From: Escherichia phage Pollock
Direction: 5' to 3' (one strand)
DNA length: 64,000 nucleotides
Sequence record: NC_027381.1
Under the pieces are notes generated by a model, which did not search any database, had not been told where the DNA came from, and saw only the letters and a list, made by a program, of their open reading frames with translations. Position 1 is the first letter of the stretch; each line of letters starts with the position of its first letter. Below, one piece after another: positions 1,562 through 60,467 of this stretch. Both the position numbers and the translations under genes were made by a program.

Positions 1562-1770
1562 ATAAACAATTTATTCTTATATTGGATTCAATTAGGGATT
1601 GGGCAAAATCAGAATTTTCTTGTAAGGGTGGACTGTTAACTATACGCGATACATATATAAATGAACATTTATGTGGGTATTTATGTACCTCATGCCCTAT
1701 TGTTCAAGTAAGAAGTAAACAACTTTATCCCGACCAAATCATTCAAACTTCCTCTCAACTAATTAAGTGA
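1558..1770 (+). CDS. small Cys-rich protein (paralogue family)
   Basis: 70 aa; MNKQFILILDSI N-terminus; Cys pattern ending C-x3-C-x2-C; stop overlaps start of RNAP large subunit. Confidence 0.4.
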   Translation: MNKQFILILDSIRDWAKSEFSCKGGLLTIRDTYINEHLCGYLCTSCPIVQVRSKQLYPDQIIQTSSQLIK

Positions 1771-3005
1771 GACTCAATATGCAACAGTTTACAGCTTTCC
1801 AATATATCAAATTAGATATTGCTAACTCTTTTGGTTTAGATAAAGAACTGTTTGATGACCGTATCAAATGGTTTGAAGAAAACAAAAATAATTTAGCTAA
1901 TTTGGTAAATGATGCAGATGAACCTGCTCAATTCTACGCAGGTATGTTGGCATACCAAGATGTACTGGAAGGTAAACCAATTGGTTATTTAGTAGGTATG
2001 GATGCTACTGCATCTGGATTGCAGTGTATGGCTGCATTAACTGGCTGTAAGACTACCGCTGAAACAGTAAATCTTATTGACCCTAATTGTCGTAAAGATG
2101 CTTATACCGATGGCTATAAAGTCATGGGAGAACTACTTAATGGCAAGATTGATAAGATTGACCGTAAGGATTTGAAGGGAGCTATTATGACTCACTTCTA
2201 TGGTTCTCAAGCAAATCCTAGAAGTGTATTTGGTGAAAATACTATAGAACTACAAAAGTTCTATGAAACTGTTCAAACCATTGCTCCCGGTGCAAATATG
2301 CTACGAGATGATTTAATCAATCTCTGGCAACCAAAAGCACTTCAACATTTATGGGAATTACCAGATGGCTTTACTGCTGTCGTTAAAGTAATGACCATGA
2401 AAGAAGAAAGCTTTGAAGTAAATGAATTAAATAGTTCCTTTACTCATCGTTATTGGGTTAATGAGGGTCAGGATTTTGGTTTATCACTTGCTGCTAATGT
2501 TGTTCACTCTGTAGATGGGATGGTAGTACGTGAGATGAATCGTCGTGCTAACTACGATGAAACCAAAATACAGCGTGTATATGAGCTTCTGACTGGTTCA
2601 AACAATACAGGTATTGTGGACTATACAGTAGATGATAAACAGCTTAAGAGAGCTATTGAGCTTGCTGAAAGACATCGTTTTGTTTCTACTGTGATGATTG
2701 AGTTCATTAACCATGAGAATGTACATATGATTCCTTTATGGATTAAGAACCAACTCATCGAAATTATTGAGAAGATGTTGGCTCATAAACCATATGCATT
2801 AATTGCAATTCATGATTGCTTTAAATGCCATCCTCTGTATATGAATAACGTGCGTCAGAACTACATTGATATCTTTGCTCAGATTGCAGATAGCACAATG
2901 CTTCAAGCAATTGCATCTCAAATCTCTGGTAAACGTATTCCAGTAACTAAACTGTCTAATGACCTTTCAACATACATTCGTAAATCCAACTACATGCTTA
3001 GTTAA
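1767..3005 (+). CDS. T7-like single-subunit RNA polymerase, catalytic C-terminal-half subunit (N4 RNAPII large-subunit-like)
   Basis: RIKWFEENKNNL (cf. T7 RIKFIEENHENI), GMDATASGLQ (motif A, cf. DGSCSGIQH), IMTHFYGSQ (motif B, cf. MTLAYGSK), IAIHDCF (motif C, cf. IHDSFGT); T7 sequences recalled from memory. Confidence 0.85.
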   Translation: MRLNMQQFTAFQYIKLDIANSFGLDKELFDDRIKWFEENKNNLANLVNDADEPAQFYAGMLAYQDVLEGKPIGYLVGMDATASGLQCMAALTGCKTTAETVNLIDPNCRKDAYTDGYKVMGELLNGKIDKIDRKDLKGAIMTHFYGSQANPRSVFGENTIELQKFYETVQTIAPGANMLRDDLINLWQPKALQHLWELPDGFTAVVKVMTMKEESFEVNELNSSFTHRYWVNEGQDFGLSLAANVVHSVDGMVVREMNRRANYDETKIQRVYELLTGSNNTGIVDYTVDDKQLKRAIELAERHRFVSTVMIEFINHENVHMIPLWIKNQLIEIIEKMLAHKPYALIAIHDCFKCHPLYMNNVRQNYIDIFAQIADSTMLQAIASQISGKRIPVTKLSNDLSTYIRKSNYMLS

Positions 3006-3014
3006 GGAACTTCT

Positions 3015-3395
3015 ATGTCCATTTTCACTAATGTAACTATTACCATTGACCCATTAGGTCATTACGTATCTATACCTCGTGACCGTATCCGTGATTCTTT
3101 AGGATACATTCCTCAAATTGTGGAACGTGGAGTACGTCAAGCCAAAGATGAAAAAGATGCTGGTTTCTGGATTTGGACAATTTATCAGTATGGTAATCCT
3201 CTAAATCCACCTGAAACCAAATTGAAATTTAAAGATGGTATTCTGACCTATCCAAAAGAAGAACCAAAATATCCAATAGCTGTTTATCACCTTAATAATG
3301 TTGCCGGATTAGATATCCGGTTTTGGCAATATGAACATGCTATGACTGTATATACAGTTAATGGTAAAGCAATTTTATTCGGGAGAATGGATTAA
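3015..3395 (+). CDS. hypothetical protein
   Basis: 126-aa ORF, co-directional and tightly packed. Confidence 0.4.
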   Translation: MSIFTNVTITIDPLGHYVSIPRDRIRDSLGYIPQIVERGVRQAKDEKDAGFWIWTIYQYGNPLNPPETKLKFKDGILTYPKEEPKYPIAVYHLNNVAGLDIRFWQYEHAMTVYTVNGKAILFGRMD

Positions 3396-3736
3396 TGATT
3401 AAAGTAGGTAATATGGTCAGAATGGTCTTTACTAAAGACCCAGAACAACATACATCCAATGTAATAATCAAAGGGTTATACATGGATAAAGCATGGGTAA
3501 TGTATGAACAGTCAGGTAAAGATGAAATTATTGATTTAGCTGACGTAAGCTTTGGCAACCCTATTCCAGAAGAACCTGCAAATCATTCTTTTGTAGCCAG
3601 AGACTATAGTGGTAATTGGCTATATTGGGACCATAAAAAAGGTTACTGGTATGAATGCAATGACCCAACACAACACGAAGAACAAGAAGTCTCTTTACCG
3701 ATTAATCAAAGCAAGCCAACTCAACCCATTTACTAA
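3395..3736 (+). CDS. hypothetical protein
   Basis: 113-aa ORF; start overlaps the upstream stop (ATGA-type). Confidence 0.4.
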   Translation: MIKVGNMVRMVFTKDPEQHTSNVIIKGLYMDKAWVMYEQSGKDEIIDLADVSFGNPIPEEPANHSFVARDYSGNWLYWDHKKGYWYECNDPTQHEEQEVSLPINQSKPTQPIY

Positions 3737-3893
3737 AATCTGGTTAAATGGGCGTCATTATGACGTCCATAATGTCTTTGATAAAGGGGAATATATTCAA
3801 GCTTACTTATGGACAGGCTGGGTATATTCCCCCTGCTTATTTAATAAAGAGGATTATATATGGCATTTAGTAAATTATGGAAAGCTATCCTAG
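3609..3893 (+). CDS. hypothetical protein (start uncertain; overlaps upstream ORF in another frame)
   Basis: 94-aa ORF overlapping 3395..3736 by 128 nt; no Met after the overlap. Confidence 0.25.
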   Translation: MVIGYIGTIKKVTGMNAMTQHNTKNKKSLYRLIKASQLNPFTKIWLNGRHYDVHNVFDKGEYIQAYLWTGWVYSPCLFNKEDYIWHLVNYGKLS

Positions 3894-4111
3894 TATTCAC
3901 TTTTTTGTTAATTGGTAGTGCTTATAGTAAGGAACACACATTAAATCCTATATCTGAAGAAATGGATGTTCAAAGAATCCATGATGATGAAGCAGGCGTT
4001 ACTTGCTGGATTTTATATGTTCCTAATACATCTAGATATCAAATGCCTGACCATTACAGTATGAGTTGTTTACCTAATACTGTAATCAAACCAGAAGCAA
4101 TTAAAAAATAA
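3860..4111 (+). CDS. hypothetical small protein with N-terminal signal-peptide-like segment
   Basis: 83 aa; hydrophobic N-terminus LVFTFLLIGSAYS; followed by a terminator. Confidence 0.35.
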   Translation: MAFSKLWKAILVFTFLLIGSAYSKEHTLNPISEEMDVQRIHDDEAGVTCWILYVPNTSRYQMPDHYSMSCLPNTVIKPEAIKK

Positions 4112-4137
4112 ATAATTAAAACTTATAACTTCATACT

Positions 4138-4168
4138 AAGCCTCCTTTTATGGAGGCTTTTAGTTTTA
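4138..4168 (+). terminator. rho-independent terminator
   Basis: aagcctcc-ttttat-ggaggctt hairpin followed by T-rich run. Confidence 0.55.
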
Positions 4169-4214
4169 TACAAATGCTTCTTATACAGGAGCATCTTTAT
4201 AAAACTATGTAGGA

Positions 4215-4670
4215 TTGGATATGAAAGTTAAACTGAAAGTACTTCCATTTAATAACACCAATATGAGCTTACCTAAACCAGCAACAGATGGTTCTGCTGG
4301 TATTGATTTACGAGCCAATACAGTTATGCCATTCGAACTTAAACCGGGAGAAACTACTCTGGTAAATACTGGTTTAGCTATCCATCTGGATGATGTTCAC
4401 TATGCAGGTATGATTTTACCTCGTTCTGGGTTAGGGCATAAACATGGTATTGTGCTTGGAAATCTTACAGGTCTCATTGATAGTGATTATCAAGGGGAAC
4501 TGATGGTAAGCCTCTGGAATCGCTCTACAAAGCCTTTTACTATTAATCCAGGTGACCGTATTGCTCAGTTAGTTATTGTGCCTGTAATGCAGCCTGAATT
4601 TGTTATAGTAGACTCTTTTGAAGCTACTGAAAGAGGCGAAGGTGGTTTCAACTCTACTGGAGTTAAGTGA
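4215..4670 (+). CDS. dut: dUTP diphosphatase (dUTPase)
   Basis: 151 aa; near-identical blocks to E. coli Dut as recalled: [59 protein letters not shown]. Confidence 0.92.
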
Positions 4671-4843
4671 TGACTGAACCAATGAGTAAGTTTGAGCTAG
4701 AAAGACATATCCATAATCTTAAGGAATATGATTCCAAGATTGCTGGTCATGAATCTGAAGTAGTTCGTCTACAAGAAGAACGTCGAGAGTACATTAATCG
4801 ACACAATCTTAACAAGATTGCAGAGAAGGTATTTCCTGCTTAA
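4670..4843 (+). CDS. hypothetical small protein (57 aa, coiled-coil-like)
   Basis: ATG overlaps dut stop (GTGATGA); not in ORF track because under 60 aa; translated by eye. Confidence 0.3.
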   Translation: MTEPMSKFELERHIHNLKEYDSKIAGHESEVVRLQEERREYINRHNLNKIAEKVFPA

Positions 4844-4865
4844 GCGCCTACGGCGCTCTCTTTGG
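4843..4865 (+). promoter_or_regulatory. recurrent motif: GC hairpin with 3-nt loop (aGCGCC-TAC-GGCGCt) followed by TCTCTTTGG
   Basis: one of four near-identical instances (4843, 5646, 13796, 59899); function unknown. Confidence 0.4.
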
Positions 4866-4869
4866 TTAT

Positions 4870-4898
4870 AGCTACCTTCGGGTAGCTTTTTATTTTTT
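4870..4898 (+). terminator. rho-independent terminator
   Basis: agctacc-ttcg-ggtagct hairpin followed by ttttatttttt. Confidence 0.6.
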
Positions 4899-4905
4899 GG
4901 GGAAA

Positions 4906-5217
4906 ATGATGGCTAAAGAACCAATCTCCAAACTATGTATTCCTATTGGAGATAAATATGAAATTACCTCTAATGGGTATTCATATGTATTAGTTGAGAA
5001 AAGAACTGTTCAATCAGGAGTTAAAGCTGGGACTACTGCTTCCAGTAATGTTGGTTATTTTCAGACTTTAGGTTCTCTTGCTAAACAGTTAATTAATAAA
5101 GAAGTATGTGAAACTAACATTACTTCTTTACAACAATTAAATGAGCGTATCGAAGAACTAGGTATTGGTATAGCTCAGTTACTTGAACAACTTGTTAAAC
5201 AAAATGAAGGTAAATGA
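4906..5217 (+). CDS. hypothetical protein
   Basis: ORF track gives 4897 (TTG); ATG at 4906/4909 after a GGGGA RBS is more likely. Confidence 0.4.
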   Translation: MMAKEPISKLCIPIGDKYEITSNGYSYVLVEKRTVQSGVKAGTTASSNVGYFQTLGSLAKQLINKEVCETNITSLQQLNERIEELGIGIAQLLEQLVKQNEGK

Positions 5218-5218
5218 A

Positions 5219-5641
5219 ATGGCACTAACCAATGAACAAAAGCAAGCACTTGAAATTGTAGCTGACTTGATTAAACAACAAGAGAATCCTCTAGTTGTTT
5301 CGGCTGGATTGGCTTTGCTGTTTAAATTGGAAATTTCCAATATGTCTCCTCGTGAAGTATTGGAACAGATTGGTAAAGAACTTAAAGCTGAACATGACCA
5401 TGATTCAGGATGTACTTGTCTTGAACGTCATCATTTCTTATTGAACGTTCTGAACAATCTGGAAAAACAGAAGTTCAATGATGAAGTTACTTATAAATTG
5501 TTGAGTACTGCTGAAGATGCTTGGGACACGTTTGAAGAACGTTATGAACGTATTCCTACTGTTACCTATACACCTTCGCAATTCACCATTCAAACTGGTG
5601 TACCGGGTATTTATTTTATTCACCCTGCTGTACAGAAGTAA
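5219..5641 (+). CDS. hypothetical protein
   Basis: ORF track start 5183 overlaps upstream gene; ATG at 5219 right after upstream stop with GAAGG RBS preferred. Confidence 0.4.
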   Translation: MALTNEQKQALEIVADLIKQQENPLVVSAGLALLFKLEISNMSPREVLEQIGKELKAEHDHDSGCTCLERHHFLLNVLNNLEKQKFNDEVTYKLLSTAEDAWDTFEERYERIPTVTYTPSQFTIQTGVPGIYFIHPAVQK

Positions 5642-5645
5642 TTCT

Positions 5646-5667
5646 CGCACTTCGTGCGTCTCTTAGG
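5646..5667 (+). promoter_or_regulatory. recurrent motif: hairpin CGCAC-TTC-GTGCG followed by TCTCTTAGG
   Basis: second instance of the hairpin + TCTCTT(T/A)GG motif; directly followed by a terminator hairpin. Confidence 0.4.
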
Positions 5668-5690
5668 AGTCATTTTGGCTCCTTTTTATT
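5664..5690 (+). terminator. rho-independent terminator
   Basis: aggagtc-atttt-ggctcct hairpin followed by ttttatt. Confidence 0.5.
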
Positions 5691-5713
5691 AACATCTGAA
5701 AGAGGAATTTATT

Positions 5714-6163
5714 ATGGGTTTATTTGGTTTTGGTAAGAAAAAAGTTAGTCAGAAAGTAGAACAAATGCGAGCTACCGCTGGAAAGATGGAAAATAAAGAT
5801 ATCGTTGAAGCAGGTATCGCTGTAATGGTTGGTGTAGCATTTGCAGATAAATCTTGCTCTGATGAAGAAATTGAAATTCTGGAAAATATCATTGAATCTG
5901 ATGACACCTTTGCAGAATGGCGTTCTGAAACTCAGGCAATGACTAATAAATGGATAAGCAAATTCCAGAAATTCCATCGTGGTGCAATGATGGATTTGGA
6001 AAAAGAATTTAACGACCTGAAAGGAGACCCTGCTGGTCAGAAACGTGCTTTGCTGTGTGGTATTGCCGTAGCAGAAGATGATGAAGGCATGGGTGCAGAA
6101 GAAAAAGCTTTTCTTGAAAAAGTTGCAGGTTGGGCAGGCATCCGTTTGGATACTTTACTGTAA
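5714..6163 (+). CDS. TerB-like protein (tellurite-resistance TerB domain family)
   Basis: 149 aa; two-part helical architecture with acidic blocks (SDEEIEILENII ... AEDDEGMGAEEKAFLEKVAGWAGI) recognised by eye as TerB-like; not database-verified. Confidence 0.45.
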   Translation: MGLFGFGKKKVSQKVEQMRATAGKMENKDIVEAGIAVMVGVAFADKSCSDEEIEILENIIESDDTFAEWRSETQAMTNKWISKFQKFHRGAMMDLEKEFNDLKGDPAGQKRALLCGIAVAEDDEGMGAEEKAFLEKVAGWAGIRLDTLL

Positions 6164-6317
6164 ATGGCACTGAAATTACGAGGAATAATAGTAGCCGTAT
6201 TATTGTTCCTTGTAGTTGCTATCGACTTCACTAGTAAGGTGATGTCGATACTAGCAGACGGTGTATTAGTTGCTGCTGTAATAGCAATAATGTGGCCTGT
6301 ATTTAAAAGGACTAACA

Positions 6318-6650
6318 ATGAGTAAACCAAAAATTGAAATTGAAAAGATTGATGCTTTACGTAATGCATTTAATGCAATGTACGTATCTCATCAAGAAAT
6401 ATCTGTAGGTGATATTGTTATTCTACACCCTTCAGTTCCGGGAATTTTTAAAGTTCCTACTGAAGAACGTCCGGGTATCGTTACTAAATTTCTACCAAAA
6501 CCAATGTATGCGTATGAAATGGCTGACGATACACGTCCAAGCCATCCTTCTTCAGCAATACAATATGATTGTGTAATCAATATCATTAATGACGATGGTG
6601 AAATTGTTCCATTCTTAATGGATTCTCGTCGCCTCCTTAAAGTTAATTAA
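6318..6650 (+). CDS. hypothetical protein
   Basis: 110-aa ORF followed by terminator. Confidence 0.4.
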   Translation: MSKPKIEIEKIDALRNAFNAMYVSHQEISVGDIVILHPSVPGIFKVPTEERPGIVTKFLPKPMYAYEMADDTRPSHPSSAIQYDCVINIINDDGEIVPFLMDSRRLLKVN

Positions 6651-6655
6651 TCTAT

Positions 6656-6690
6656 AAGCCTACTTAGTAGTAGGCTTTCATTTTTCATCT
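6656..6690 (+). terminator. rho-independent terminator
   Basis: aagcctac-ttagta-gtaggctt hairpin followed by tcatttttcat. Confidence 0.55.
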
Positions 6691-6704
6691 GTAAAGGTAA
6701 TCCT

Positions 6705-6788
6705 ATGCGTCCTACAGCTATTAAAAAAGCTATTGAAAGAGCTTTTGCAGCAGGACTTGTTCCTTTTATTAAAGGTAGTCCGGGTATT
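6705..6788 (+). CDS. MoxR-like AAA+ ATPase, exon 1 (ends inside Walker A: ...FIKGSPGI)
   Basis: ATG 6705; reading frame stops immediately after GSPGI (TGA at 6789); the GKS that completes the P-loop is at 7179. Confidence 0.55.
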
Positions 6789-7178
6789 TGATTTTACAAG
6801 ATACCCTAAGCAGTGATGCTTAGTAAAAAATCCCTTGAATTGCTGGAAACCCTTAAAGCTGAATTAACTACTGCGAGTTGAAAAACAAAGCCAATGTTTA
6901 AAAATAATTCAGATATGTAGGCAATCAGCAGCCAAGCTCCTAAGGTTTAGGATATTAAGCTATGGAGAAGGTTCAACGACTAGGCGTAAGCCGTACACTC
7001 AAGTGAGTGGAAGTGGGGGACTCTTTACAAACTTACCACCATGGAATACCTTTTGTATTTGCAAAGAAAGGTCTATGTCGTAAATGTAGTAAAGATGAAG
7101 ATATAGTCTCGTCTTATGTGAAAGCATAAGCTGTTTAATAAACAGAGGGTAGCTTAACGAACTACCCTGAAGATTACG
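6789..7178 (+). ncRNA. group I intron 1 (ORF-less), interrupting the AAA ATPase Walker A
   Basis: ~390 nt between exon end (last nt T) and exon 2 (preceded by G); contains AACGACTAGGCG...CTCAAGTGAGTGGAAG core-like element shared with intron 2; exact boundaries approximate. Confidence 0.5.
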
Positions 7179-7421
7179 GGTAAATCTGCAATTATTCGTC
7201 AAATTGCAAAAGAAGCTAAATTATTGGTTATTGACCTTCGTTTAGGTCAATGTGACCCAACTGATTTATTGGGATTTCCAAATATTGAGAATGGACGGTC
7301 TGTATATCATCCACCAAAAGATATTCCAATTATTGGGGATGAAATTCCTAAAGGATATAACGGTTGGCTGTTATTCCTTGATGAAATGAATACAGCACCT
7401 AAAGCTGTTCAGGCTGCTGCT
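7179..7421 (+). CDS. MoxR-like AAA+ ATPase, exon 2 (GKSAIIRQIAKEAKLLVIDLRLGQ ... Walker B LLFLDEMN)
   Basis: no start codon or RBS of its own; in-frame stop at 7155 upstream; ends with stop directly after AVQAAA. Confidence 0.55.
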
Positions 7422-8265
7422 TAAATTAATAGGCATTTATGGGGGAAACCTCATATCTAAAGCTACTTAAAACGGGGAACTCTTAGTAGTGTATATACAC
7501 TAAAGACAATCCGTTGCTAAATAGGAATTAAGATGCAAGAAGTTTGGAAAGCTATTCCCGGATATGAGAAAGAATATGAAATTTCTACTCATGGACGGAT
7601 TAAGAGTTTAGATAGAGTCGTTCCTTGTAAACATGGCACTCGCCTTGTTAAAGGAAAATTATTAAAAACCTATATTAATCGAAAAGGGTATTTAATTGTT
7701 ACTTTATCTAAAGAAAATAAACTGAAAACATATACCGTACATCAGTTAGTTGCTCTTACATTTATTCCAAATTTCATTAAAGGCACAGAAATTAATCATA
7801 AAGACGGTAATAAATCCAATCCAGTATTAGATAATTTAGAAATTAGCAACCCTAGCCATAACCAGTTACATGCTATAGCTACAGGTCTTAAAGCAAAGGT
7901 TGGTAAGAGTAAATACCACAATGTAACTTACATTAAAAACCCACGGGCTAAGAAAAAGTGGGCTGCAAGTATAAGTTATAATGGGGAAAAATCTTTTGGA
8001 TGGAAAACATTTATGACAGAAGAAGAAGCTGCAAGATATGTAGATAAACTTCTTGATGAAATAGGTGATACTTCCCGTTTAAGAAATTTCTAATTAATTC
8101 CTTAAATGCCCAACGACTAGTCGAAAGACGTAGGCTCAAGTGAGTCGAAAAAGTAGCTCCCCAAACAAGTAAAGTTGTGGGGATTGATATAGTCTGCTCT
8201 ATATAGAAATATATAGCTGGATTAATTATCCGGGTAATGATTAACGACCATTACTGAACATAAGG
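7422..8265 (+). mobile_element. group I intron 2 carrying an HNH homing endonuclease ORF (td-like)
   Basis: 7462-7530 CTTAAAACGGGGAACTCTTAGTAG...AGACAATCCGTTGCTAAATAGG closely matches the phage T4 td intron core as recalled; ORF begins right after this element; 3' part has CAACGACTAGTCG...CTCAAGTGAGTCG. Confidence 0.65.
7533..8093 (+). CDS. HNH homing endonuclease (intron-encoded)
   Basis: 186 aa; N-terminal WKAIPGYEKEYEISTHGRIKS, HNH core NHKDGNKSNPVLDNLEISNPSHNQLH, C-terminal AP2-like DNA-binding region. Confidence 0.8.
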   Translation: MQEVWKAIPGYEKEYEISTHGRIKSLDRVVPCKHGTRLVKGKLLKTYINRKGYLIVTLSKENKLKTYTVHQLVALTFIPNFIKGTEINHKDGNKSNPVLDNLEISNPSHNQLHAIATGLKAKVGKSKYHNVTYIKNPRAKKKWAASISYNGEKSFGWKTFMTEEEAARYVDKLLDEIGDTSRLRNF

Positions 8266-8955
8266 TATAAACTGTTGGACCGTATGGTAGGACAAACCAA
8301 ATTACATCCTAGTGTTTATATTGCTGCTGCTGGTAACAAAGATACAGATGGAGCAATTACTACTACTATGAGTAGTGCAACTCTATCTCGTATTGTTAGT
8401 ATGGAACTAGAAGTTAACTTTAATGATTGGGCTGTATGGGCATTAGCCAATAACATTGACCATCGCATCATGGGATATCTTCAGTTCAAACCAGAAGCAT
8501 TCCATAAATTTGACCCTAAAAATCTTAAAGAACCTTTTCCATGCCCACGTACATGGGAGTTCATTAACCGTGCTATTAATGGATTAGATGTATCTTTAAA
8601 TTCTGATTTGGGTTTATTGTCTGGAATTATTGGTAATGGCACTGCTCGTGAATTTATTGAGTATTGTGCTATCTATGGTGAGATTGCTTCCTTTGAAGAA
8701 ATTATGTCTAATCCAGAAAGCATTGTCATCAAAGACAGACCAGACATTAAGTATGCATATGCTGGTTTTGTAGCTTCTCGCATTACCCCTGAAAATGCAT
8801 CTCAATTAATGAAATTCATTAATCGACTGCCCGTTGAATTTCAGATTGTAACTTTGAGTAATGCTTTTAAAGCTAAACCTCTCATTTCTCAAGTTCCAGA
8901 AATAATGGAATGGATTACTCGTTATGCCAACGAGTCAGGTGAAGGGATGCTCTAA
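8266..8955 (+). CDS. MoxR-like AAA+ ATPase, exon 3 (C-terminal part)
   Basis: AVQAAA | (YKL)LDRMVGQTKLHPSVYIAAAGN continues the AAA fold after Walker B; ORF track start 8275 is a TTG; 5' boundary approximate. Confidence 0.5.
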   Translation, partial: YKLLDRMVGQTKLHPSVYIAAAGNKDTDGAITTTMSSATLSRIVSMELEVNFNDWAVWALANNIDHRIMGYLQFKPEAFHKFDPKNLKEPFPCPRTWEFINRAINGLDVSLNSDLGLLSGIIGNGTAREFIEYCAIYGEIASFEEIMSNPESIVIKDRPDIKYAYAGFVASRITPENASQLMKFINRLPVEFQIVTLSNAFKAKPLISQVPEIMEWITRYANESGEGML

Positions 8956-10069
8956 TAAGGAGTTTCCTATGGATAAGAATAAAGCACTGGATTTAGCCAA
9001 AGTAGATTTATTTGCCCGTAAACAAAATACTTTTATTTGTTCCATCTTTTGCTCACTTCAGCTTAAGTGGGACGATACCATCCCTACAGCTTGTACTGAT
9101 GGTTTGAGTATCTTGATAAATCCAGATTATTTTATGGATTTACCACGTCCAATGCGAGTGACACTTCTTGCTCATGAGACGTGGCATGTTGCTTTAAAAC
9201 ATGTCTTAAGGGTTACGGGAAGAAATCCAAAATTATGGAATTATGCTTGTGATTATTACATCAATAATATGCTTGATGATGCTAAGTATGTTATTGGTAC
9301 TGGTTGGCTATTAGACCATCAGTATGATGGCATGAGTGCTCCAGAAATCTATAACAAGCTACAAAAATCCAGTAAAAACCTGCCTCAAAATTTATTAGGT
9401 ATGGATATTAAACCCTGTCCTTCTTCATCAGAAGAAGCTATTGAATCACAAATTGATTCTATGCTTATTCGTGGCTCTATTGCTGCAAAGCAAGGAGGAC
9501 AAGCTGGAAGTATCCCCGGAGATATCCAAGCATATATTGATGAGCTTCTGAATCCTAAATTACCTTGGAACGATATTCTCAGAAATTTTATTAATGAGAT
9601 GACTCGTAATGACTACACTTGGGCTAAACCTAATAAACGGTATTTGCCTGATATTTATTTACCTTCTCTAAATTCTGAAGGTCTAGAACATATCATTTTT
9701 TATACTGATATTTCTGGTTCAGTATCTGATACACAATTTGGTGTGTATATCAGTGAAATTCATGCAATTAAAACAACATTGAATCCAAAACGAATTACAG
9801 TATGTACGTTCGATACAAAGATTCATGAAGTGTATGAATTAGAAGAAGGAGATGATATTAGTAAGTGTACGTTTACAGGTAGAGGAGGTACATCTCTTAC
9901 TTGTGTGTATGAACATGCTAAGAAAGAGAAACCAGAACTCATCGTAATATTTTCTGATTTGGATTGTGCTCCAATGAAGGAACAACCTACACCTAATGTC
10001 ATTTGGGTATGTTTGGACAATCCAACAAAAACAGTTGATTTTGGTCAACTGATTCATGTGAAAAGTTAA
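8924..10069 (+). CDS. HExxH metallopeptidase-like / von Willebrand factor A domain protein (MoxR partner)
   Basis: 381 aa; LLAHETWHVALKH (HExxH); MIDAS-like IIFYTDISGSVSD (DxSxS); overlaps ATPase 3' end. Confidence 0.6.
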   Translation: MPTSQVKGCSNKEFPMDKNKALDLAKVDLFARKQNTFICSIFCSLQLKWDDTIPTACTDGLSILINPDYFMDLPRPMRVTLLAHETWHVALKHVLRVTGRNPKLWNYACDYYINNMLDDAKYVIGTGWLLDHQYDGMSAPEIYNKLQKSSKNLPQNLLGMDIKPCPSSSEEAIESQIDSMLIRGSIAAKQGGQAGSIPGDIQAYIDELLNPKLPWNDILRNFINEMTRNDYTWAKPNKRYLPDIYLPSLNSEGLEHIIFYTDISGSVSDTQFGVYISEIHAIKTTLNPKRITVCTFDTKIHEVYELEEGDDISKCTFTGRGGTSLTCVYEHAKKEKPELIVIFSDLDCAPMKEQPTPNVIWVCLDNPTKTVDFGQLIHVKS

Positions 10070-10111
10070 TCTGCATGAGTAGGTAAATTTTAATTTACCT
10101 TTCAGATGTTT

Positions 10112-10142
10112 TTGCCCTCTTTGTGAGGGCATCTTTTTTTGG
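10112..10142 (+). terminator. rho-independent terminator
   Basis: gccctc-tttgt-gagggc hairpin followed by atcttttttt. Confidence 0.6.
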
Positions 10143-10151
10143 AGTTGTCTC

Positions 10152-10556
10152 ATGTTTAATATTCATAAAGCTGTACGTGATGCAGCTAATTCTATGTACC
10201 CAAAGAAAATTAAAATGGAAGTACCAAGTAATCTTCCTTTATCTAATAACCGTTGTCATTACAACGCTGTACAAGCAGTTAAAAATAATTTAGCTGCTGG
10301 AATATTAGAAGTAGTTATTATTTATAAAAATGACTGTACAGTTCATTATGTAAATGTATTACCTAATGGTACTTGTGTAGATTTCACATTAGGAGTCATG
10401 TGTATAAATGATGATTATCGTTTTATACGTCATGTTTCTCCTAATGAATATGACACCATTAATAAAACTTTAAAAAATGCTAAGGATAAGTTATATGCTT
10501 CAACCCCTTGGTACATACAGAAATTAATAAAACTTTCTGGTAAAGATTGGTGTTAA
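10152..10556 (+). CDS. hypothetical protein
   Basis: 134-aa ORF, Cys-containing. Confidence 0.35.
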   Translation: MFNIHKAVRDAANSMYPKKIKMEVPSNLPLSNNRCHYNAVQAVKNNLAAGILEVVIIYKNDCTVHYVNVLPNGTCVDFTLGVMCINDDYRFIRHVSPNEYDTINKTLKNAKDKLYASTPWYIQKLIKLSGKDWC

Positions 10557-11371
10557 TAATGAAAGAACAAGAACAACTTAGAAAAGATATTTCTCGTATC
10601 TTTTCAATCTTTAAAGCCAGTGAATGTAAATTACGTCCTCATTTCATTCTTACTGGAGAAAGTGGTACTGGAAAAACTTTCTTAATTAAGTCTTTAACTG
10701 AACAGCATAAAATGGATTATATTGAAATTAATGCTGCTCAGCTAACTAAAGAAGGTTTATCGGGAAATAGCTTAAGTAAGGCACTTGCTCCTTTACGCCA
10801 AGCTAATGGTAATCCTGTCATCTGTTTTGTAGATGAATTCGATAAATTATTTATCGCAGGGAATAACAATAGTGAATTAGCTCATGAATCTACCAATGGA
10901 GTTCAAAACGAATTCCTTAAGATTCTTGAATCTGAATGTACTTCTGTATTTGGTGATTATGGTAAATATGTAGATGTTCCTGTAAATAATGTTCTATTTG
11001 TATTTGCAGGAGCATTCAATGGTGAACCAAATATCACTTTAGATAAGCTACGTACTTTTGGTGTTAAAACTGAATTTTTAGGTCGTGTGGGTTTAGTTTA
11101 TAACACTGTCAAAATTAGCTTAGAAAGTCTTATTCAAGTCTTAAAAGATTCAGACACTCTCACTATGTATCTGGATTTATTTCCAGAAGTTAAACGAGAG
11201 AAAGCCATCAAAGATATCTCAGCATTTATCAAAGATAATTATGAGATGAATACTTTGGGTATTCGTATGGTTAATACGTTAATTACTCAATATTTCATTC
11301 AAGATGGAAAACTCACCCGAGATGAAGTTAAAACCAGTACTTTCCAAAATAAACTTAAATTTGGTGAGTAG
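10547..11371 (+). CDS. AAA+ ATPase (P-loop NTPase)
   Basis: 274 aa; Walker A ILTGESGTGKTFLIKSL; Walker B VICFVDEFDKLF. Confidence 0.5.
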   Translation: MVLIMKEQEQLRKDISRIFSIFKASECKLRPHFILTGESGTGKTFLIKSLTEQHKMDYIEINAAQLTKEGLSGNSLSKALAPLRQANGNPVICFVDEFDKLFIAGNNNSELAHESTNGVQNEFLKILESECTSVFGDYGKYVDVPVNNVLFVFAGAFNGEPNITLDKLRTFGVKTEFLGRVGLVYNTVKISLESLIQVLKDSDTLTMYLDLFPEVKREKAIKDISAFIKDNYEMNTLGIRMVNTLITQYFIQDGKLTRDEVKTSTFQNKLKFGE

Positions 11372-11508
11372 TACGTCTAAATCTCCTATTGCATGGGATA
11401 TCTTTCGTATCCCTTCAAAACATGTATGTCGAACCAAGAAACGCACTGTAGCCACTATTGCTCGTAATAAGGGTTATCGTGTGATTCCTGTGTTCGGAAG
11501 AAGTTAAA

Positions 11509-11523
11509 GCCCCTTCGGGGCTT
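11509..11523 (+). promoter_or_regulatory. GC hairpin with 3-nt loop (AGCCCC-TTC-GGGGCT)
   Basis: same hairpin architecture as the recurrent motif but without TCTCTTTGG; ~80 nt upstream of a highly codon-biased gene. Confidence 0.3.
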
Positions 11524-11601
11524 GCCTCGGAAAGAAAGAGGAATTAATCCTCTTCAAATTAAACTCTATTTTTAATCCCAATCTGAAAAGGTAAATGAAA
11601 A

Positions 11602-13044
11602 ATGGCTAAGACTCTTGAAAATGAAGAAAAGAAAGTTCACGTTGCTGACGTTGTTAAACACGGTGAGAAACTGATTCTCCCTGAAAACATGTCTATGTCT
11701 GATGCAATTGATTTGCTGAAGCGTCGTCAGAAGTACGAAGAAGAAGAAGTAATTGTTCGTCGTACTTATAACGTATTCCCATGGGATGGTGCTCATGCAC
11801 TGATGCTGGCTCTGACTGAACGTTATGGTTGGGCTGCTGCTGAAGCAACTCCGGGATTCTTTGGTTCTAACCCTCCGCAAATGCTGGATGTTCAGGTTGG
11901 TTATGGTCAAACCAAGAAAGTACCTTGGGGTCGTTTCTCTTTGCCTCAAGTAGATGGATTTGTTCAGTGCTCTGCACAGAAGAAAGATGGTCGTATTAGC
12001 TTTGAACTAGTTGGTAAAGTTCTGCGTAAAGACGAAAAGACCATCGAACTGCTATTTGATACTGTAGAAAAAACTCTGCGTACTAATTCCATTTATATGG
12101 GTCAGGCTATCAAAATTCGTTTCCGTGATAACGATGGTGAACTGTTGGAAATGCCTGAACCAGAATTTATGGATTTACGTGGTATCAGCCGTAATTCTCT
12201 GGTTTATTCTGATGATGTTCAAAATCTGATTGAAACTAATCTGTTTACTCCGATTGAGCGTGTAGCAGATTGCATCATCAATGAAATTCCAGTTAAACGT
12301 GGTGTACTGCTTGGTGGACCATATGGTACTGGTAAAACTATGGCTGCAACTGTTGCTGCTTCTCTGGCTACCAGCGTTGGTGTTACTTACGTATATGTAC
12401 CTCGTTGTGATGAACTGTCTGATGCAATTCAGTTTGCTAAGCAGTATAGCGATAAAGCGTGTGTAATCTTCTGCGAAGATATTGACCGTGCTGTATCTGG
12501 TGAACGTAGTGTTAAGATGGATGACATCCTGAATATTCTGGATGGTATTGATACTAAAACGTCTCGCATCATCACTGTTCTGACTACTAACCATCTGGAA
12601 AATATTAACCCAGCAATGCTGCGTCCGGGTCGTCTGGATGCAATCATTGATGTTACTCCGCCAGATGCTAAAGCAGTTGAAAAACTGGTACGTCTGTATG
12701 GTCGTGATACCATTGCTGCTGATGCAGACCTGACTCTGGTTGGTGAAGCTCTGGCAGGTACTATCCCTGCGGTAATTGCAGAAGTTGTTAAACGTGCTAA
12801 GTTGCACCAACTTCAGTATCAAGAGCCGGGTACTATGATTAAAGAAATCAGTGGTCAAGCTCTGCTGGATTCTGCTCTGACTATTCAAGCACAGCGTAAG
12901 CTGCTGGAAGAACAGTCTAAACCAAAAGTTAAAGAACCTACCTTTAACGAAACTATTGCTTCTGCCGTTGCTCCTGCAATTGAAGCTGCGGTAAGCAAAG
13001 TTACTAATCAGGTATCTGAACTGCACGAGCGCATCTGCGACTGA
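11602..13044 (+). CDS. classical AAA-family ATPase (FtsH/Cdc48-type AAA domain, no protease domain seen)
   Basis: 480 aa; Walker A LLGGPYGTGKTM; Walker B CVIFCEDIDR; ILDGIDTKTSRIITVLTTNHLENINPAMLRPGRLD; strongly CTG/CGT/GGT-biased codon usage unlike neighbours. Confidence 0.7.
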   Translation: MAKTLENEEKKVHVADVVKHGEKLILPENMSMSDAIDLLKRRQKYEEEEVIVRRTYNVFPWDGAHALMLALTERYGWAAAEATPGFFGSNPPQMLDVQVGYGQTKKVPWGRFSLPQVDGFVQCSAQKKDGRISFELVGKVLRKDEKTIELLFDTVEKTLRTNSIYMGQAIKIRFRDNDGELLEMPEPEFMDLRGISRNSLVYSDDVQNLIETNLFTPIERVADCIINEIPVKRGVLLGGPYGTGKTMAATVAASLATSVGVTYVYVPRCDELSDAIQFAKQYSDKACVIFCEDIDRAVSGERSVKMDDILNILDGIDTKTSRIITVLTTNHLENINPAMLRPGRLDAIIDVTPPDAKAVEKLVRLYGRDTIAADADLTLVGEALAGTIPAVIAEVVKRAKLHQLQYQEPGTMIKEISGQALLDSALTIQAQRKLLEEQSKPKVKEPTFNETIASAVAPAIEAAVSKVTNQVSELHERICD

Positions 13045-13070
13045 ATCATATTCGTTAAGTGATTCTCTAA

Positions 13071-13096
13071 TAGCCCTTCAATGAGGGGCTATTTTA
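13071..13096 (+). terminator. terminator-like hairpin
   Basis: tagccc-ttcaatgag-gggcta followed by ttttag. Confidence 0.4.
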
Positions 13097-13114
13097 GTTA
13101 TCACTGGAGGAATC

Positions 13115-13795
13115 ATGAAAAATCTTTATCAGAAGATTAATGGAAGCCAGTACAACCGAATCTTCGTTGTGGGAGATTTACATGGTTGTTTCGATGCTCT
13201 TCAAAAAGAAATGTGGGCTGTTCAATTTAATACTGAAACAGACCTTATTATATCTGTAGGTGATTTAATTGACCGTGGTACTCAAAACGTAGAGTGTTTA
13301 CGTCTATTAAAAGAACCTTGGTTTAAAGCTGTTTTAGGTAATCATGAAGTAATGGCATTGAATGCCTTATCTTCTGAACTTGACAGTGAAGAATCCAACT
13401 TAGCCTATTATAACTGGTTTAGTAATGGGGGTAGTTGGATTATGGATATTACGGAAGAACAGAAACCAGAAGTATTAGAGTTATTTGGTCTGGTAGCTGA
13501 ATTACCGGGAATCATCGAAATCTCTGTAGATGATAAAACTATTGTTGTTTGTCATGCAGACTACCCTTCAAATCAGTATGAATTCAATAAACCTATTGAT
13601 GAAAATACCCTTATTTGGGGAAGAGGACGTATTGTTCTAAACCAAAATAAAAAAGGTACTGTTATTGAAGGTGCTGATGAATTCTATTTTGGACATACCC
13701 CAGTTAAAGAACCTACTAAATTCTATAATCAAAACTATATTGATACAGGAGCAGTATTTCCTGTTGGTCAATTAAGTATGATTCAAATCAAATAA
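13115..13795 (+). CDS. Ser/Thr protein phosphatase (PPP / calcineurin-like metallophosphoesterase, lambda-PPase-like)
   Basis: 226 aa; GDLHGC (GDxHG), GDLIDRG (GDxxDRG), GNHE motifs in canonical order. Confidence 0.85.
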   Translation: MKNLYQKINGSQYNRIFVVGDLHGCFDALQKEMWAVQFNTETDLIISVGDLIDRGTQNVECLRLLKEPWFKAVLGNHEVMALNALSSELDSEESNLAYYNWFSNGGSWIMDITEEQKPEVLELFGLVAELPGIIEISVDDKTIVVCHADYPSNQYEFNKPIDENTLIWGRGRIVLNQNKKGTVIEGADEFYFGHTPVKEPTKFYNQNYIDTGAVFPVGQLSMIQIK

Positions 13796-13817
13796 CTGCC
13801 TACGGCAGTTTCTTTGG
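13796..13817 (+). promoter_or_regulatory. recurrent motif: hairpin CTGCC-TAC-GGCAG followed by TTTCTTTGG
   Basis: third instance; immediately after the phosphatase stop. Confidence 0.4.
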
Positions 13818-13837
13818 TTAATTTCACATCTGTATAG

Positions 13838-14152
13838 GTGCTCAATATGAATATTCAAAAATTTGGGGAGATTACATTTATTGGTAAATCTAATTTACCT
13901 GCAATGACTAACTTTGTTTTTGAAGTAGAAAACAAAGCAGAATCTGAAATGATTGAAAATCATCAAGTTAAAACATTGCTTATGTTAACTGCTGTACGAA
14001 ATCATTTCGATAGTGTAATCAGTATGGTTCAAAACAAGCTTGATAAAGCTTCTATAAGTGATTTTGAGGACTTTTCTGTACCAGTAGGTAAAAGTGATAA
14101 GTCTCCTAAAGAAATCGTATTAGAGAGCCTCTCACGAATTATGAATAAGTAG
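13838..14152 (+). CDS. hypothetical protein
   Basis: 104-aa ORF. Confidence 0.4.
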   Translation: MLNMNIQKFGEITFIGKSNLPAMTNFVFEVENKAESEMIENHQVKTLLMLTAVRNHFDSVISMVQNKLDKASISDFEDFSVPVGKSDKSPKEIVLESLSRIMNK

Positions 14153-14180
14153 TATTGAGCCTCTATAGTTAAGGGGGTTT

Positions 14181-14444
14181 ATGTCAGATTCTTCAAACAA
14201 TACATATCGTGGAAACATGATGTGTATTAAGTTTTCCTATGACTTTAAGATAATCCTCCCTATTGAAGATGGTAAAGCCTTACTAGAATTATTGAGTAAA
14301 GCTGAACTCTTCAAAGAAGAGTATCAAAAAGAACCTCATATTGAACCAATGGATAAAGACATTGATATTAGGTTCTTAGCAAGAACTACATATGAACGTC
14401 TTAAACTTAACTTTTTAAGGTCTGATAATAATGAGCCTGACTAG
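14181..14444 (+). CDS. hypothetical protein
   Basis: 87-aa ORF; 3' end overlaps helicase start. Confidence 0.4.
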   Translation: MSDSSNNTYRGNMMCIKFSYDFKIILPIEDGKALLELLSKAELFKEEYQKEPHIEPMDKDIDIRFLARTTYERLKLNFLRSDNNEPD

Positions 14445-15675
14445 TTGCCAAGAGCAAGCAGCTAAACAGTTCTTATCGTTTCTTTGTACTTCAGAGAAAC
14501 ATATGGTTATTTCAGGTCCTCCCGGAGTAGGCAAAACATTCATGCTTAATCACATGATTGAGATGTTGCCTAGTAGCAGGCGTATTACAACTATTATGGG
14601 AGCAGAACCTCTTCATAATATTGCTATAACAGCTACTACTAATAAAGCTGCTGAAGTACTTCAGGAAAGATTCCCTGATAGACAAGTAACAACAATTCAT
14701 TCAAAGCTAGGGCTTACAGTAAGAGATGATTACCGTACAGGTAAAACATTTACTGATAAGAGTAAAGGCTTTACACCTCTATCCGACACTCTCGTCTTAA
14801 TGGACGAATCTTCAATGGCGGATACTCAATTACTGAAATTGATTGATGAAGGTACTTCTAAAAACTGTAAGATAGTTTTTATTGGAGACCATTGTCAGTT
14901 AGCTCCAGTGTCAGAAACAATGAGTCCAGTCTTCAACTCGGGCTACATTACTTCATATCTAAATACCCAAATGCGTACTAGTAATAGTCCTGCATTAACT
15001 TTGCTGAATGAACAATTGCGTCAAACAGTAGAAACGGGTGTCTTCAGACCAATTACTCCTGTTCCCGGTACTATCGAATTCGTTGATGACGATACGATGA
15101 GACAATTGATGAATGCTAATTTCATCTCACAGGAAACTCCCGGTCACAAAATCCTTGCATACACAAACAATGGGGTTCAAGAATACAACACGTATATTCG
15201 AACCAAAAAGAATCTACCTCCGACATTAATAGTTGGTGATACTGTTGTATCAAACAATAGTATTGAGACTGCTGGTTCTCGAACAATTATTGAAAAAGCA
15301 TACAATGTATATCATGTATCTGAAATCCAATATGATGATGTAATTCCTTATTACTTAGTTGATATTGGAGTTGGTGGTTTAGTAAAACAACCAGTTAACT
15401 TTTCACAGCTACAAACTCATATCAGAGAAGAAGCCAGTGAAAAGAATTGGGTAGAGTATTTCCGTTTAAAGAATGAATTTGCTGACCTACGGTTTGCATA
15501 TGCATCAACGGTTCATAAATCTCAAGGTTCAACCTTTGATACTGTATATATAGATTTAACTGATTTATGTATCTGTAAAGACATGAATCAATTAGCCCGT
15601 ATGCTTTATGTAGCTGTAAGTCGTGCTACTACTCGTGTTGTGTTCTATGGTAATCCTCCTCATTTTATGAGGTGA
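14431..15675 (+). CDS. SF1 DNA helicase (Dda/RecD-like)
   Basis: 414 aa; Walker A ISGPPGVGKTF; Walker B LVLMDESSM; C-terminal YASTVHKSQGSTFDTVYID. Confidence 0.75.
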   Translation: MSLTSCQEQAAKQFLSFLCTSEKHMVISGPPGVGKTFMLNHMIEMLPSSRRITTIMGAEPLHNIAITATTNKAAEVLQERFPDRQVTTIHSKLGLTVRDDYRTGKTFTDKSKGFTPLSDTLVLMDESSMADTQLLKLIDEGTSKNCKIVFIGDHCQLAPVSETMSPVFNSGYITSYLNTQMRTSNSPALTLLNEQLRQTVETGVFRPITPVPGTIEFVDDDTMRQLMNANFISQETPGHKILAYTNNGVQEYNTYIRTKKNLPPTLIVGDTVVSNNSIETAGSRTIIEKAYNVYHVSEIQYDDVIPYYLVDIGVGGLVKQPVNFSQLQTHIREEASEKNWVEYFRLKNEFADLRFAYASTVHKSQGSTFDTVYIDLTDLCICKDMNQLARMLYVAVSRATTRVVFYGNPPHFMR

Positions 15676-60307: not shown

Positions 60308-60384
60308 CGGAATGTAGCACAGCCGGGTAGTGCATCTGCTTTGGGAGCAGAGGGTCATAGGTTCAAATCCTATCATTCCGACCA
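60308..60384 (+). tRNA. tRNA-Pro (anticodon UGG)
   Basis: hand-folded cloverleaf: acceptor CGGAATG/CATTCCG, anticodon loop TTTGGGA, T-loop TTCAAAT, encoded CCA. Confidence 0.75.
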
Positions 60385-60389
60385 AATTA

Positions 60390-60467
60390 TTCCCGTTTAG
60401 CTTAATTGGTTAAAGCACCCGACTCATAATCGGATGATTACAGGTTCGAATCCTGTCACGGGAACCA
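60390..60467 (+). tRNA. tRNA-Met or Ile2 (anticodon CAU)
   Basis: hand-folded: anticodon loop CTCATAA, T-arm ACAGG-TTCGAAT-CCTGT, encoded CCA; exact 5' end ambiguous by 1 nt. Confidence 0.65.

What the first reader, a model, noticed from the sequence alone, without database searches (positions are those of the whole stretch)
8266..10069. MoxR-type ATPase paired with an HExxH metallopeptidase-like vWA protein
The downstream partner combines an HExxH motif (AHETWH) with a MIDAS-type vWA domain (DISGSVS), and its start overlaps the ATPase 3' end. MoxR-vWA pairs are established chaperone-like modules, but their role in a phage is unclear.
Basis: partly seen in the sequence, partly recalled or inferred. 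Interest (0 to 1): 0.4.

Follow-up and report, generated by a model that had tools for sequence, protein, structure and literature searches.

The report
Intron-split MoxR ATPase with zincin-vWA partner

Summary
The domain call holds. The downstream protein (best start 8969, end 10069, 366 aa) matches Pfam DUF2201_N (putative metallopeptidase, 147 bits) and DUF2201 (vWA-like, 88 bits). Its HExxH and a full MIDAS (DxSxS, T, D) are invariant in 41 homologues down to 37% identity, and the motifs recur in relatives of 20-27% identity.

The ATPase ORF at 8266-8955 is only the third exon. The full 338-aa gene is 6705-6788 + 7179-7421 + 8266-8955. Intron 1 (390 nt, no intact ORF) splits the Walker A codons. 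Intron 2 (844 nt) carries an HNH homing endonuclease gene.

The spliced product aligns without gaps to uninterrupted 338-aa genes of Ithacavirus phages. A contig 98% identical in DNA lacks intron 2 precisely. Its model best matches NorQ and CbbQ.

The pair equals N4 gp24/gp25, two of the 14 core genes of N4-like phages. The same architecture was described in jumbo phages. Split gp24 genes were noted in Klebsiella phage Pylas and in Vibrio phages JA-1 and VCO139.

My inference is an ATP-driven remodelling and cleavage module that acts on an unknown client during the middle phase. This is a new member of known kinds, of modest interest.

The parts
6656..6677 (+). Terminator-like hairpin with a T-run, upstream of the two-gene unit
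   Evidence: 9-bp stem, then TCATTTTTCA. It lies between the previous ORF (ends 6650) and the ATPase start (6705).
6705..6788 (+). ATPase exon 1 (residues 1-28, MRPT...GSPGI). It holds the first half of Walker A (6774-6788).
   Evidence: It aligns to residues 1-28 of the uninterrupted SP076, SP058 and B2 ATPases.
6789..7178 (+). Group I intron 1 (390 nt, no intact ORF), inserted inside the Walker A codons
   Evidence: Rfam RF00028 scores 101.4 bits, E 2.4e-26. The last exon base U6788 can pair with G6800 in P1, and the intron ends in G7178 (read). Intronless homologues read GGTATT|GGTAAG. Introns at the same site occur in L006, VCO139 and L036.
7007..7129 (+). Remnant C-terminus of a deleted homing endonuclease ORF inside intron 1
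   Evidence: The last 26 residues equal the C-terminus of the 146-aa HNH_3 ORF in L006. L006 has 505 extra nt at window position 7053/7054.
7179..7421 (+). ATPase exon 2 (residues 29-109). It holds GKS of Walker A (7179-7187) and Walker B D96/E97 (7380-7385).
   Evidence: D96 and E97 are invariant in 47 homologues.
7422..8265 (+). Group I intron 2 (844 nt) carrying a homing endonuclease gene
   Evidence: Rfam RF00028 hits both halves: 33.5 bits (E 4.9e-6) and 28.9 bits (E 1.2e-4). U7421 can pair with G7432 in P1, and the intron ends in G8265. The 98%-identical contig L006 lacks exactly this segment. Pylas has an 853-nt intron at the same site, annotated as such. VCO139 is split at the same site.
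7533..8093 (+). HNH homing endonuclease ORF (186 aa) inside intron 2
   Evidence: Pfam NUMOD4 (60.9 bits) and HNH_3 (28.1 bits). PHROG 59 and related HNH endonuclease families.
8266..8955 (+). ATPase exon 3 (residues 110-338 plus stop). It holds sensor 1 N133 (8335-8337), the arginine finger R151 (8389-8391) and the helical C-terminal domain.
   Evidence: N133 and R151 are invariant.
8957..8962 (+). Shine-Dalgarno AAGGAG for the partner gene, directly after the ATPase stop codon
   Evidence: It lies 6 nt before ATG 8969.
8969..10069 (+). gp25-like protein (366 aa): N-terminal zincin-like domain (DUF2201_N), conserved linker, C-terminal vWA domain (DUF2201)
9173..9187 (+). HExxH motif (H69, E70, H73). 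H78 (9200-9202) and D95 (9251-9253) are candidate further zinc ligands.
   Evidence: H69, E70, H73 and D95 are invariant; H78 is at least 90% conserved.
9707..9721 (+). MIDAS DxSxS (D247, S249, S251). The remaining MIDAS residues are T308 (9890-9892) and D330 (9956-9958).
   Evidence: All five residues are invariant in 41 sequences.
10113..10131 (+). Terminator-like hairpin with a T-run, directly downstream of the partner gene
   Evidence: 7-bp stem with 5 GC pairs, then TCTTTTTTTG.

Best explanation
The locus is a two-gene unit flanked by terminator-like hairpins. It is homologous to N4 gp24 and gp25.

Gene 1 encodes a 338-aa MoxR-class AAA+ ATPase. Its mRNA must first lose two self-splicing group I introns. 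Intron 1 lies inside the Walker A codons. Intron 2 lies 12 codons after Walker B and carries an HNH homing endonuclease.

Gene 2 encodes a 366-aa adaptor with three parts: a zincin-like HExxH domain, a conserved linker, and a minimal vWA domain with a complete MIDAS.

Proposed mechanism, by analogy with NorQ/NorD and CbbQ/CbbO (inferred, not shown):
- The ATPase forms a hexameric ring that docks the vWA domain of one adaptor.
- The MIDAS metal captures an acidic side chain of a client protein.
- ATP hydrolysis pulls on the adaptor linker and remodels the client.
- The HExxH domain cleaves the client, or a segment exposed by the remodelling.

The genes sit in the +-strand block that holds replication and nucleotide-metabolism genes, and gp24 and gp25 are middle transcripts in N4. 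The client is therefore more likely a non-virion protein, of host or phage, handled during the replication phase than a capsid or tail protein.

Shown here: gene structure, domains, motif conservation, fold class, intron identity and intron borders. Inferred: complex formation, proteolysis, the client and the timing in this phage.
For: Gene model. The spliced CDS is 1017 nt and in frame. It aligns without gaps to the uninterrupted 338-aa ATPases of SP076, SP058 and B2 at 85% identity, with matching junction codons. Intron 1 scores 101 bits on Rfam RF00028, and both halves of intron 2 hit the same model. A natural intron-2-free allele exists in L006.

ATPase class. Pfam AAA_5 is above its cut-off. 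K30, D96, E97, N133 and R151 are invariant. The model has pLDDT 91, with beta-hairpins at 61-72 and around 120-133. Its best fold matches are NorQ (E 5e-10) and CbbQ2, followed by dynein and midasin.

Pairing. The two genes are adjacent in SP076, SP058, B2, MY01, Pylas, VCO139, L006 and K64-1. An AAGGAG sits directly after the ATPase stop. Terminator-like hairpins flank the unit.

Timing and context. gp24 and gp25 are core genes and middle transcripts in N4 (PMC4193335). Neighbours here and in the Dyella element are dUTPase, helicase, thymidylate synthase and DNA polymerase A.

Against: The vWA domain is minimal, and I could not identify a pore-entering finger like that of NorD. Gene neighbourhood is mixed in other phage groups: in K64-1 the pair lies next to virion structural genes. 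Middle-phase expression is taken from N4, not measured for this phage.
Confidence: 0.6

Rival explanations
1. Virion-assembly chaperone plus maturation protease. The pair folds and trims structural proteins, as proposed for the same architecture in group 2.2 jumbo phages and as shown for the MoxR-vWA pair of Acidianus two-tailed virus in tail development.
For: Iyer et al. 2021 (PMC7824862, read) propose exactly this. In jumbo phage K64-1 the pair lies directly after a run of virion structural genes.
Against: In this window and its relatives the pair lies in the +-strand block with replication and nucleotide-metabolism genes, away from the late structural block on the other strand. gp24 and gp25 are described as middle transcripts in N4 (PMC4193335). 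The same pair in the Dyella element sits among thymidylate synthase, helicase and DNA polymerase A genes.
Confidence: 0.2
2. Metal-cofactor insertion chaperone without proteolysis. As with NorQD, CoxDE or CobST, the ring and the vWA adaptor open a client to load a metal, and the HExxH domain only holds or hands over the metal.
For: The closest solved ATPase structures are NorQ and CbbQ, whose partners act without cleavage (PMC13036017). PHROG 249 (porphyrin biosynthesis, CobS-like) is a weak secondary hit of the ATPase.
Against: The invariant glutamate of HExxH is the catalytic base of zincins and is not needed for metal holding alone. Pfam names the domain a putative metallopeptidase. By my recollection Pfam also places it in the Peptidase_MA clan; I did not check this here. 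No obvious metalloenzyme client is encoded next to the pair.
Confidence: 0.12
3. The ATPase gene is dead. The insertions are homing endonuclease cassettes that broke the gene, the fragments are relics, and only the vWA protein still works.
For: Several GenBank records, such as VCO139, annotate the pieces as separate ORFs. Splicing was not tested.
Against: Both insertions have group I ribozyme cores. They have the expected U before the 5' splice site and G at the intron end. The exons join into a full-length frame with every catalytic residue intact and 85% identity to uninterrupted genes. The same sites are occupied in distant genera that keep intact exons.
Confidence: 0.03

Closest known systems
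Bacteriophage N4 gp24 (AAA ATPase) and gp25 (vWFA protein), core genes of N4-like phages (Schitoviridae)
   Same: Homologous pair in the same order and the same genome region. A hit in a Pseudomonas N4-like phage is annotated 'N4 gp25-like protein'. The literature lists both as core genes (gp24 unknown, gp25 vWFA domain) and middle transcripts (PMC4193335, PMC2784036).
   Different: This phage is a new relative, only about 80-82% identical in DNA to Ithacavirus. Its gp24 homologue carries two introns. By the account of Fouts et al. (PMC3670811), N4 has no such selfish elements.
MoxR ATPase plus metallopeptidase-vWA pair of group 2.2 jumbo phages (Iyer et al. 2021, PMC7824862)
   Same: Same two-protein architecture. 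K64-1 gp059 and gp060 keep GSPGIGKS, HEILH, DASGS and GGGGT.
   Different: The jumbo-phage proteins are longer (444 and 461 aa) and only about 25-28% identical. They were proposed to act in virion assembly, whereas the context here is the replication-gene block.
NorQ/NorD and CbbQ/CbbO (MoxR CGN subfamily with vWA partners)
   Different: The ATPase is 15-18% identical to NorQ and CbbQ2 over the aligned region. It has a much larger helical C-terminal domain (TM-score 0.5 on query length). NorD and CbbO have no HExxH domain. No finger-like vWA insertion was seen. The clients of those systems (nitric oxide reductase, Rubisco) have no counterpart here.
Intron-split gp24 homologues in Klebsiella phage Pylas and Vibrio phages JA-1 and VCO139
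   Same: Pylas has an 853-nt HNH-carrying intron at exactly the intron-2 site (AAA|YK) and is annotated 'ATPase split by intron'. VCO139 is split at both sites, GSPGV|GKS and VQAAA|YK, and its site-1 insert scores 52 bits on RF00028. Fouts et al. noted gp24 split by an HNH gene (PMC3670811).
   Different: Here intron 1 has lost its endonuclease gene, leaving a 505-nt deletion remnant. A 98%-identical relative has the opposite pattern: intron 1 with a frameshifted endonuclease gene and no intron 2.
Acidianus two-tailed virus p618 (MoxR) with its vWA partner
   Same: A viral MoxR-vWA chaperone pair, cited by Iyer et al..
   Different: It is an archaeal virus, its partner has no peptidase domain, and it has an experimentally supported role in tail development. 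I did not compare sequences here.

Membership tests
MoxR-class AAA+ ATPase | Walker A GxxGxGK[ST] and Walker B hhhhDE | tested here: met
   GSPGIGKS is restored across intron 1, and LLFLDE follows in exon 2. K30, D96 and E97 are invariant in 47 homologues.
MoxR-class AAA+ ATPase | Profile match to the dynein-related/MoxR AAA family (Pfam AAA_5) above the curated cut-off | tested here: met
   26.2 bits against a cut-off of 22. The margin is small. PHROG 1297 'ATPase' scores 407 bits.
MoxR-class AAA+ ATPase | Fold closest to solved MoxR ATPases, with a helix-2 insert and a pre-sensor-1 beta-hairpin | tested here: met
   Foldseek top hits are NorQ (E 5e-10, TM 0.62 on target length) and CbbQ2. 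The model shows strands 61-65 and 68-72 after helix 2, and strands 120-122 and 126-133 before sensor 1.
MoxR-class AAA+ ATPase | Hexameric ring with ATPase activity, working with a vWA partner | not testable with these tools
   Only adjacency of the two genes is shown.
vWA domain with MIDAS | DxSxS ... T ... D metal-binding residues | tested here: met
   D247, S249, S251, T308 and D330 are invariant in 41 sequences.
vWA domain with MIDAS | vWA (Rossmann-like) fold | tested here: met
Zincin-type metallopeptidase | HExxH on a helix, conserved across the family | tested here: met
   H69, E70 and H73 are invariant. They lie in predicted helix 60-75. The motif is kept in relatives of 20-27% identity. 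Pfam DUF2201_N scores 147 bits.
Zincin-type metallopeptidase | Third zinc ligand and zincin fold shared with a solved peptidase | tested here: inconclusive
Zincin-type metallopeptidase | Zinc binding and peptide-bond hydrolysis | not testable with these tools
   No experiment was found in the searched literature.
Group I self-splicing intron | Match to the group I covariance model (RF00028) at or above the gathering score | tested here: met
   Intron 1 scores 101.4 bits against a gathering score of 50. Intron 2 is split by its ORF and gives two partial hits of 33.5 and 28.9 bits, each below the gathering score.
Group I self-splicing intron | U before the 5' splice site paired with G in P1; G as the last intron base; exact restoration of the host gene | tested here: met
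   U6788-G6800 with G7178, and U7421-G7432 with G8265 (read). The spliced frame is collinear with intronless genes. L006 lacks intron 2 precisely.
Group I self-splicing intron | Self-splicing of the transcript | not testable with these tools
   This needs RT-PCR or an in vitro splicing assay.
HNH endonuclease (label given to the gp25-like protein by PHROG 1314 and many RefSeq records) | HNH/His-Me finger nuclease domain | tested here: not met
   Pfam finds only DUF2201_N, DUF2201 and a weak VWA_CoxE match, and no HNH family. The label appears and is a propagated misannotation.

The most novel reading that the evidence does not exclude
The gp24/gp25 pair may be an ATP-gated protease of a kind not yet described. 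The MoxR ring would pull on the conserved, flexible linker (LNPKLPW...RPNRRYxPDxYLPS) between the vWA and zincin domains. This would unmask or position the HExxH site so that a client caught by the MIDAS is cut only when ATP is spent. The client would be a host protein whose removal is needed for the switch to phage replication, or for escape from a host defence. That would explain why the pair is a core gene set of all N4-like phages.
Probability: 0.15. Interest if true: 0.6.

Novelty: new member of a known kind. Interest (0 to 1): 0.3.

Why it matters
The pair belongs to the small core gene set of a whole phage family and recurs in jumbo and rV5-like phages, yet nobody knows what it does. 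A correct gene model is the precondition for any knock-out or expression work. Anyone cloning 8266-8955 as 'the ATPase' would obtain a fragment without Walker motifs.

The intron pattern is a tidy natural series of homing endonuclease gain, decay and loss at fixed sites in the catalytic core of one gene. The wrong 'HNH endonuclease' name on the partner protein is widespread and worth correcting. None of this overturns current understanding.

Tried and rejected
Searches that gave nothing useful:
- PADLOC defence models: only a 13.7-bit match for the ATPase and none for the partner.
- NCBIfam: no family for either protein.
- PDB by sequence: full-length profile gave only marginal vWA hits at E 0.2-0.5. 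The N-domain profile gave only BepA at E about 0.8, which is not significant.
- The afdb50 library was not available.
- Literature searches for DUF2201, COG3864, 'MoxR + N4-like' and 'Schitoviridae + group I intron' gave nothing relevant. PMC10579305 uses gp24 and gp25 for unrelated tail genes.
- Exact look-up of the intron-2 endonuclease protein: not on record, so the source of the window was not traced.

Readings considered and rejected:
- ATG 8924 as the start of the partner gene: no Shine-Dalgarno sequence, and it does not match the homologues.
- The 'HNH endonuclease' name for the partner protein.
- Inteins: the insertions contain stops, and in L047 and L057 their lengths (910 and 883 nt) are not multiples of three.
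- The RyhB hit at 10079-10138: E 0.74; it overlaps the terminator-like hairpin and is a chance match.

Incomplete: Rfam did not detect introns in L047, L051 or L057 at E up to 0.001, so the nature of those three interruptions is unproven.

Full report
WHAT IS AT THE COORDINATES

The ORF list shows a 226-aa ORF at 8275-8955 and a 381-aa ORF at 8924-10069. The first has no Walker motifs. It begins with ...DRMVGQTKLHPSVYIAAAGN, which is the region after Walker B of an AAA+ protein.

Reading upstream I found the missing parts in other frames. A 28-aa ORF at 6705-6791 ends in GSPGI followed by a stop. A stretch from 7179 reads GKSAIIRQ...LLFLDEMNTAPKAVQAAA followed by a stop at 7422. Joining 6705-6788, 7179-7421 and 8266-8955 gives 1017 nt in frame and a 338-aa protein with an intact GSPGIGKS.

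THE TWO INSERTIONS ARE GROUP I INTRONS

- Rfam RF00028 matches 6778-7130 at 101.4 bits (E 2.4e-26). It matches the two halves of the second insertion at 33.5 and 28.9 bits, split by an ORF.
- Both insertions follow a U that can pair with a G in a P1 helix (U6788-G6800, U7421-G7432). Both end in G (7178, 8265), as read.
- The ORF in intron 2 (7533-8093, 186 aa) is a NUMOD4 + HNH_3 homing endonuclease.

INDEPENDENT CHECKS OF THE BORDERS

The window belongs to a member of the Schitoviridae, about 80-82% identical in DNA to Ithacavirus phages FSL SP-076, FSL SP-058 and Shigella phage B2. Those phages have an uninterrupted ATPase gene of exactly 1017 nt. My spliced product aligns to them without a single gap at 85% identity, and the codons at both junctions match.

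A metagenomic contig, L006, is 98% identical to the window over 13 kb. It lacks intron 2 exactly. It carries 505 extra nt inside intron 1, holding an HNH_3 ORF whose C-terminus survives in the window as the small ORF 7007-7129. In L006 that endonuclease gene already looks frameshifted.

The same insertion sites are used elsewhere:
- Klebsiella phage Pylas has an 853-nt intron at the intron-2 site, annotated 'ATPase split by intron'.
- Vibrio phage VCO139 is split at both sites, each insert with an HNH ORF. Its first insert scores 52 bits on RF00028. Fouts et al. had noted gp24 split by an HNH gene (PMC3670811).
- Among the 80 best IMG/VR relatives, four are interrupted: one at residue 28|29, two at 58|59 and one at 109|110. 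Rfam supports an intron only in the 28|29 case, at 49.2 bits, just below the gathering score of 50.

DOMAIN ASSIGNMENT

The spliced ATPase passes Pfam AAA_5 at 26.2 bits against a cut-off of 22. K30, D96, E97, N133 and R151 are invariant in 47 homologues. The AlphaFold model has pLDDT 91 and shows the extra beta-hairpins of the MoxR/dynein clade. Its best solved neighbours are NorQ and CbbQ2, then dynein and midasin.

I could not assign the N-terminal fold to a solved zincin. The structure lists held only vWA hits. The only sequence hit of the N-domain profile was the M48 peptidase BepA at E about 0.8.

GENE START AND OPERON STRUCTURE

ATG 8969 follows an AAGGAG that sits directly after the ATPase stop. 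It also fits the N-termini of the homologues and the 366-aa call of P0001. The two genes therefore abut rather than overlap. Terminator-like hairpins at 6656-6677 and 10113-10131 bracket the pair.

WHAT IS ALREADY KNOWN

The pair is N4 gp24 and gp25. These are two of the 14 core genes of N4-like phages and are middle transcripts; gp24 is listed as unknown and gp25 as a vWFA-domain protein (PMC4193335; PMC2784036). tblastn finds the partner in 642 phage records and the ATPase in 805. These are mostly N4-like phages, plus jumbo and rV5-like phages.

Iyer et al. described the MoxR plus metallopeptidase-vWA pair in jumbo phages and proposed a role in virion assembly with proteolytic processing (PMC7824862). 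Shigella phage B2 is already annotated 'MoxR-like ATPase' and 'putative metallopeptidase'. Many other records, and PHROG 1314, call the partner 'HNH endonuclease'. Pfam does not support that name.

HOW IT MOST LIKELY WORKS

The closest solved system is NorQ/NorD. There a vWA finger enters the pore of the hexamer and the ring remodels the linker of the partner (PMC13036017). By analogy I propose the following:
- A gp24 ring docks the vWA domain of gp25.
- The MIDAS holds an acidic residue of a client.
- ATP hydrolysis pulls on the conserved, low-confidence linker (residues about 195-240).
- The invariant HExxH site cuts the client.

The pair lies among replication and nucleotide-metabolism genes here, in L006 and in a Dyella prophage-like element, and it is middle-class in N4. 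I therefore favour a non-virion client. The context in K64-1, next to structural genes, keeps the assembly hypothesis alive. All of this is inference. No functional data were found.

VERDICT

The observation needs two corrections: the ATPase gene has three exons, and the partner gene starts at 8969. The module and the split-gene phenomenon both have precedents, so this is a new member of known kinds. Interest is modest at 0.3.

Noticed in passing
window 5714-6325: A TerB-domain protein (5714-6163; Pfam TerB 32 bits) is followed by a 53-aa membrane-like ORF (6164-6325). The homologue of the small ORF is annotated 'TciB-like' in SP076. Both lie just upstream of the gp24/gp25 unit and are conserved in Ithacavirus and L006.
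   Followed up: partly
window 10547-13044: Two more AAA+ ATPases follow within 3 kb. One is a 274-aa ClpX-like protein (AAA/AAA_2; 10547-11371). The other is a 480-aa FtsH-like AAA protein without a protease domain (11602-13044). That makes three AAA+ proteins in about 6 kb of the replication-gene block.
   Followed up: partly
window 60308-60637: A cluster of four tRNA genes: Pro-TGG, Met-CAT, Arg-TCT and Leu-TAA.
   Followed up: no
window 8186-8217: A 32-nt stretch of the intron-2 core (P7-P9 region, GATATAGTCTGCTCTATATAGAAATATATAGC) is 100% identical to sequences in ten records of large (about 125 kb) Lactococcus lactis phages, AM1 to LW81. This points to a shared intron lineage across very distant hosts.
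   Followed up: no
L006 4425-5005 versus window 7007-7129: The intron-1 homing endonuclease shows a decay series. In the 98%-identical contig it is present but apparently frameshifted (a 37-aa ORF and a 146-aa ORF in different frames). In the window, 505 nt are deleted and only a 40-codon tail is left.
   Followed up: yes
L047, L051 (residue 58|59) and L057 (residue 109|110): Further IMG/VR relatives have the gp24 homologue interrupted by inserts of about 900 nt, including a third site after ...PTDLL. Rfam found no intron in them at E up to 0.001, so their nature is open.
   Followed up: partly
PHROG 1314; RefSeq records such as NC_021782 SP076_00100 and NC_049444 gp37: The gp25-like metallopeptidase-vWA protein is widely labelled 'HNH endonuclease', although no HNH domain is detectable. 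The ATPase of Klebsiella phage MY01 is labelled 'DnaA protein'.
   Followed up: yes
L007 (Dyella sp. ASV21 contig JAELTT010000005, locus 1588-15209): A prophage-like element with an integrase and a Tad2-like gene carries a gp24-like ATPase (347 aa) and a gp25-like protein. They sit next to thymidylate synthase, a helicase and DNA polymerase A. The pair therefore also occurs in an integrated element related to the N4-type replication module.
   Followed up: partly
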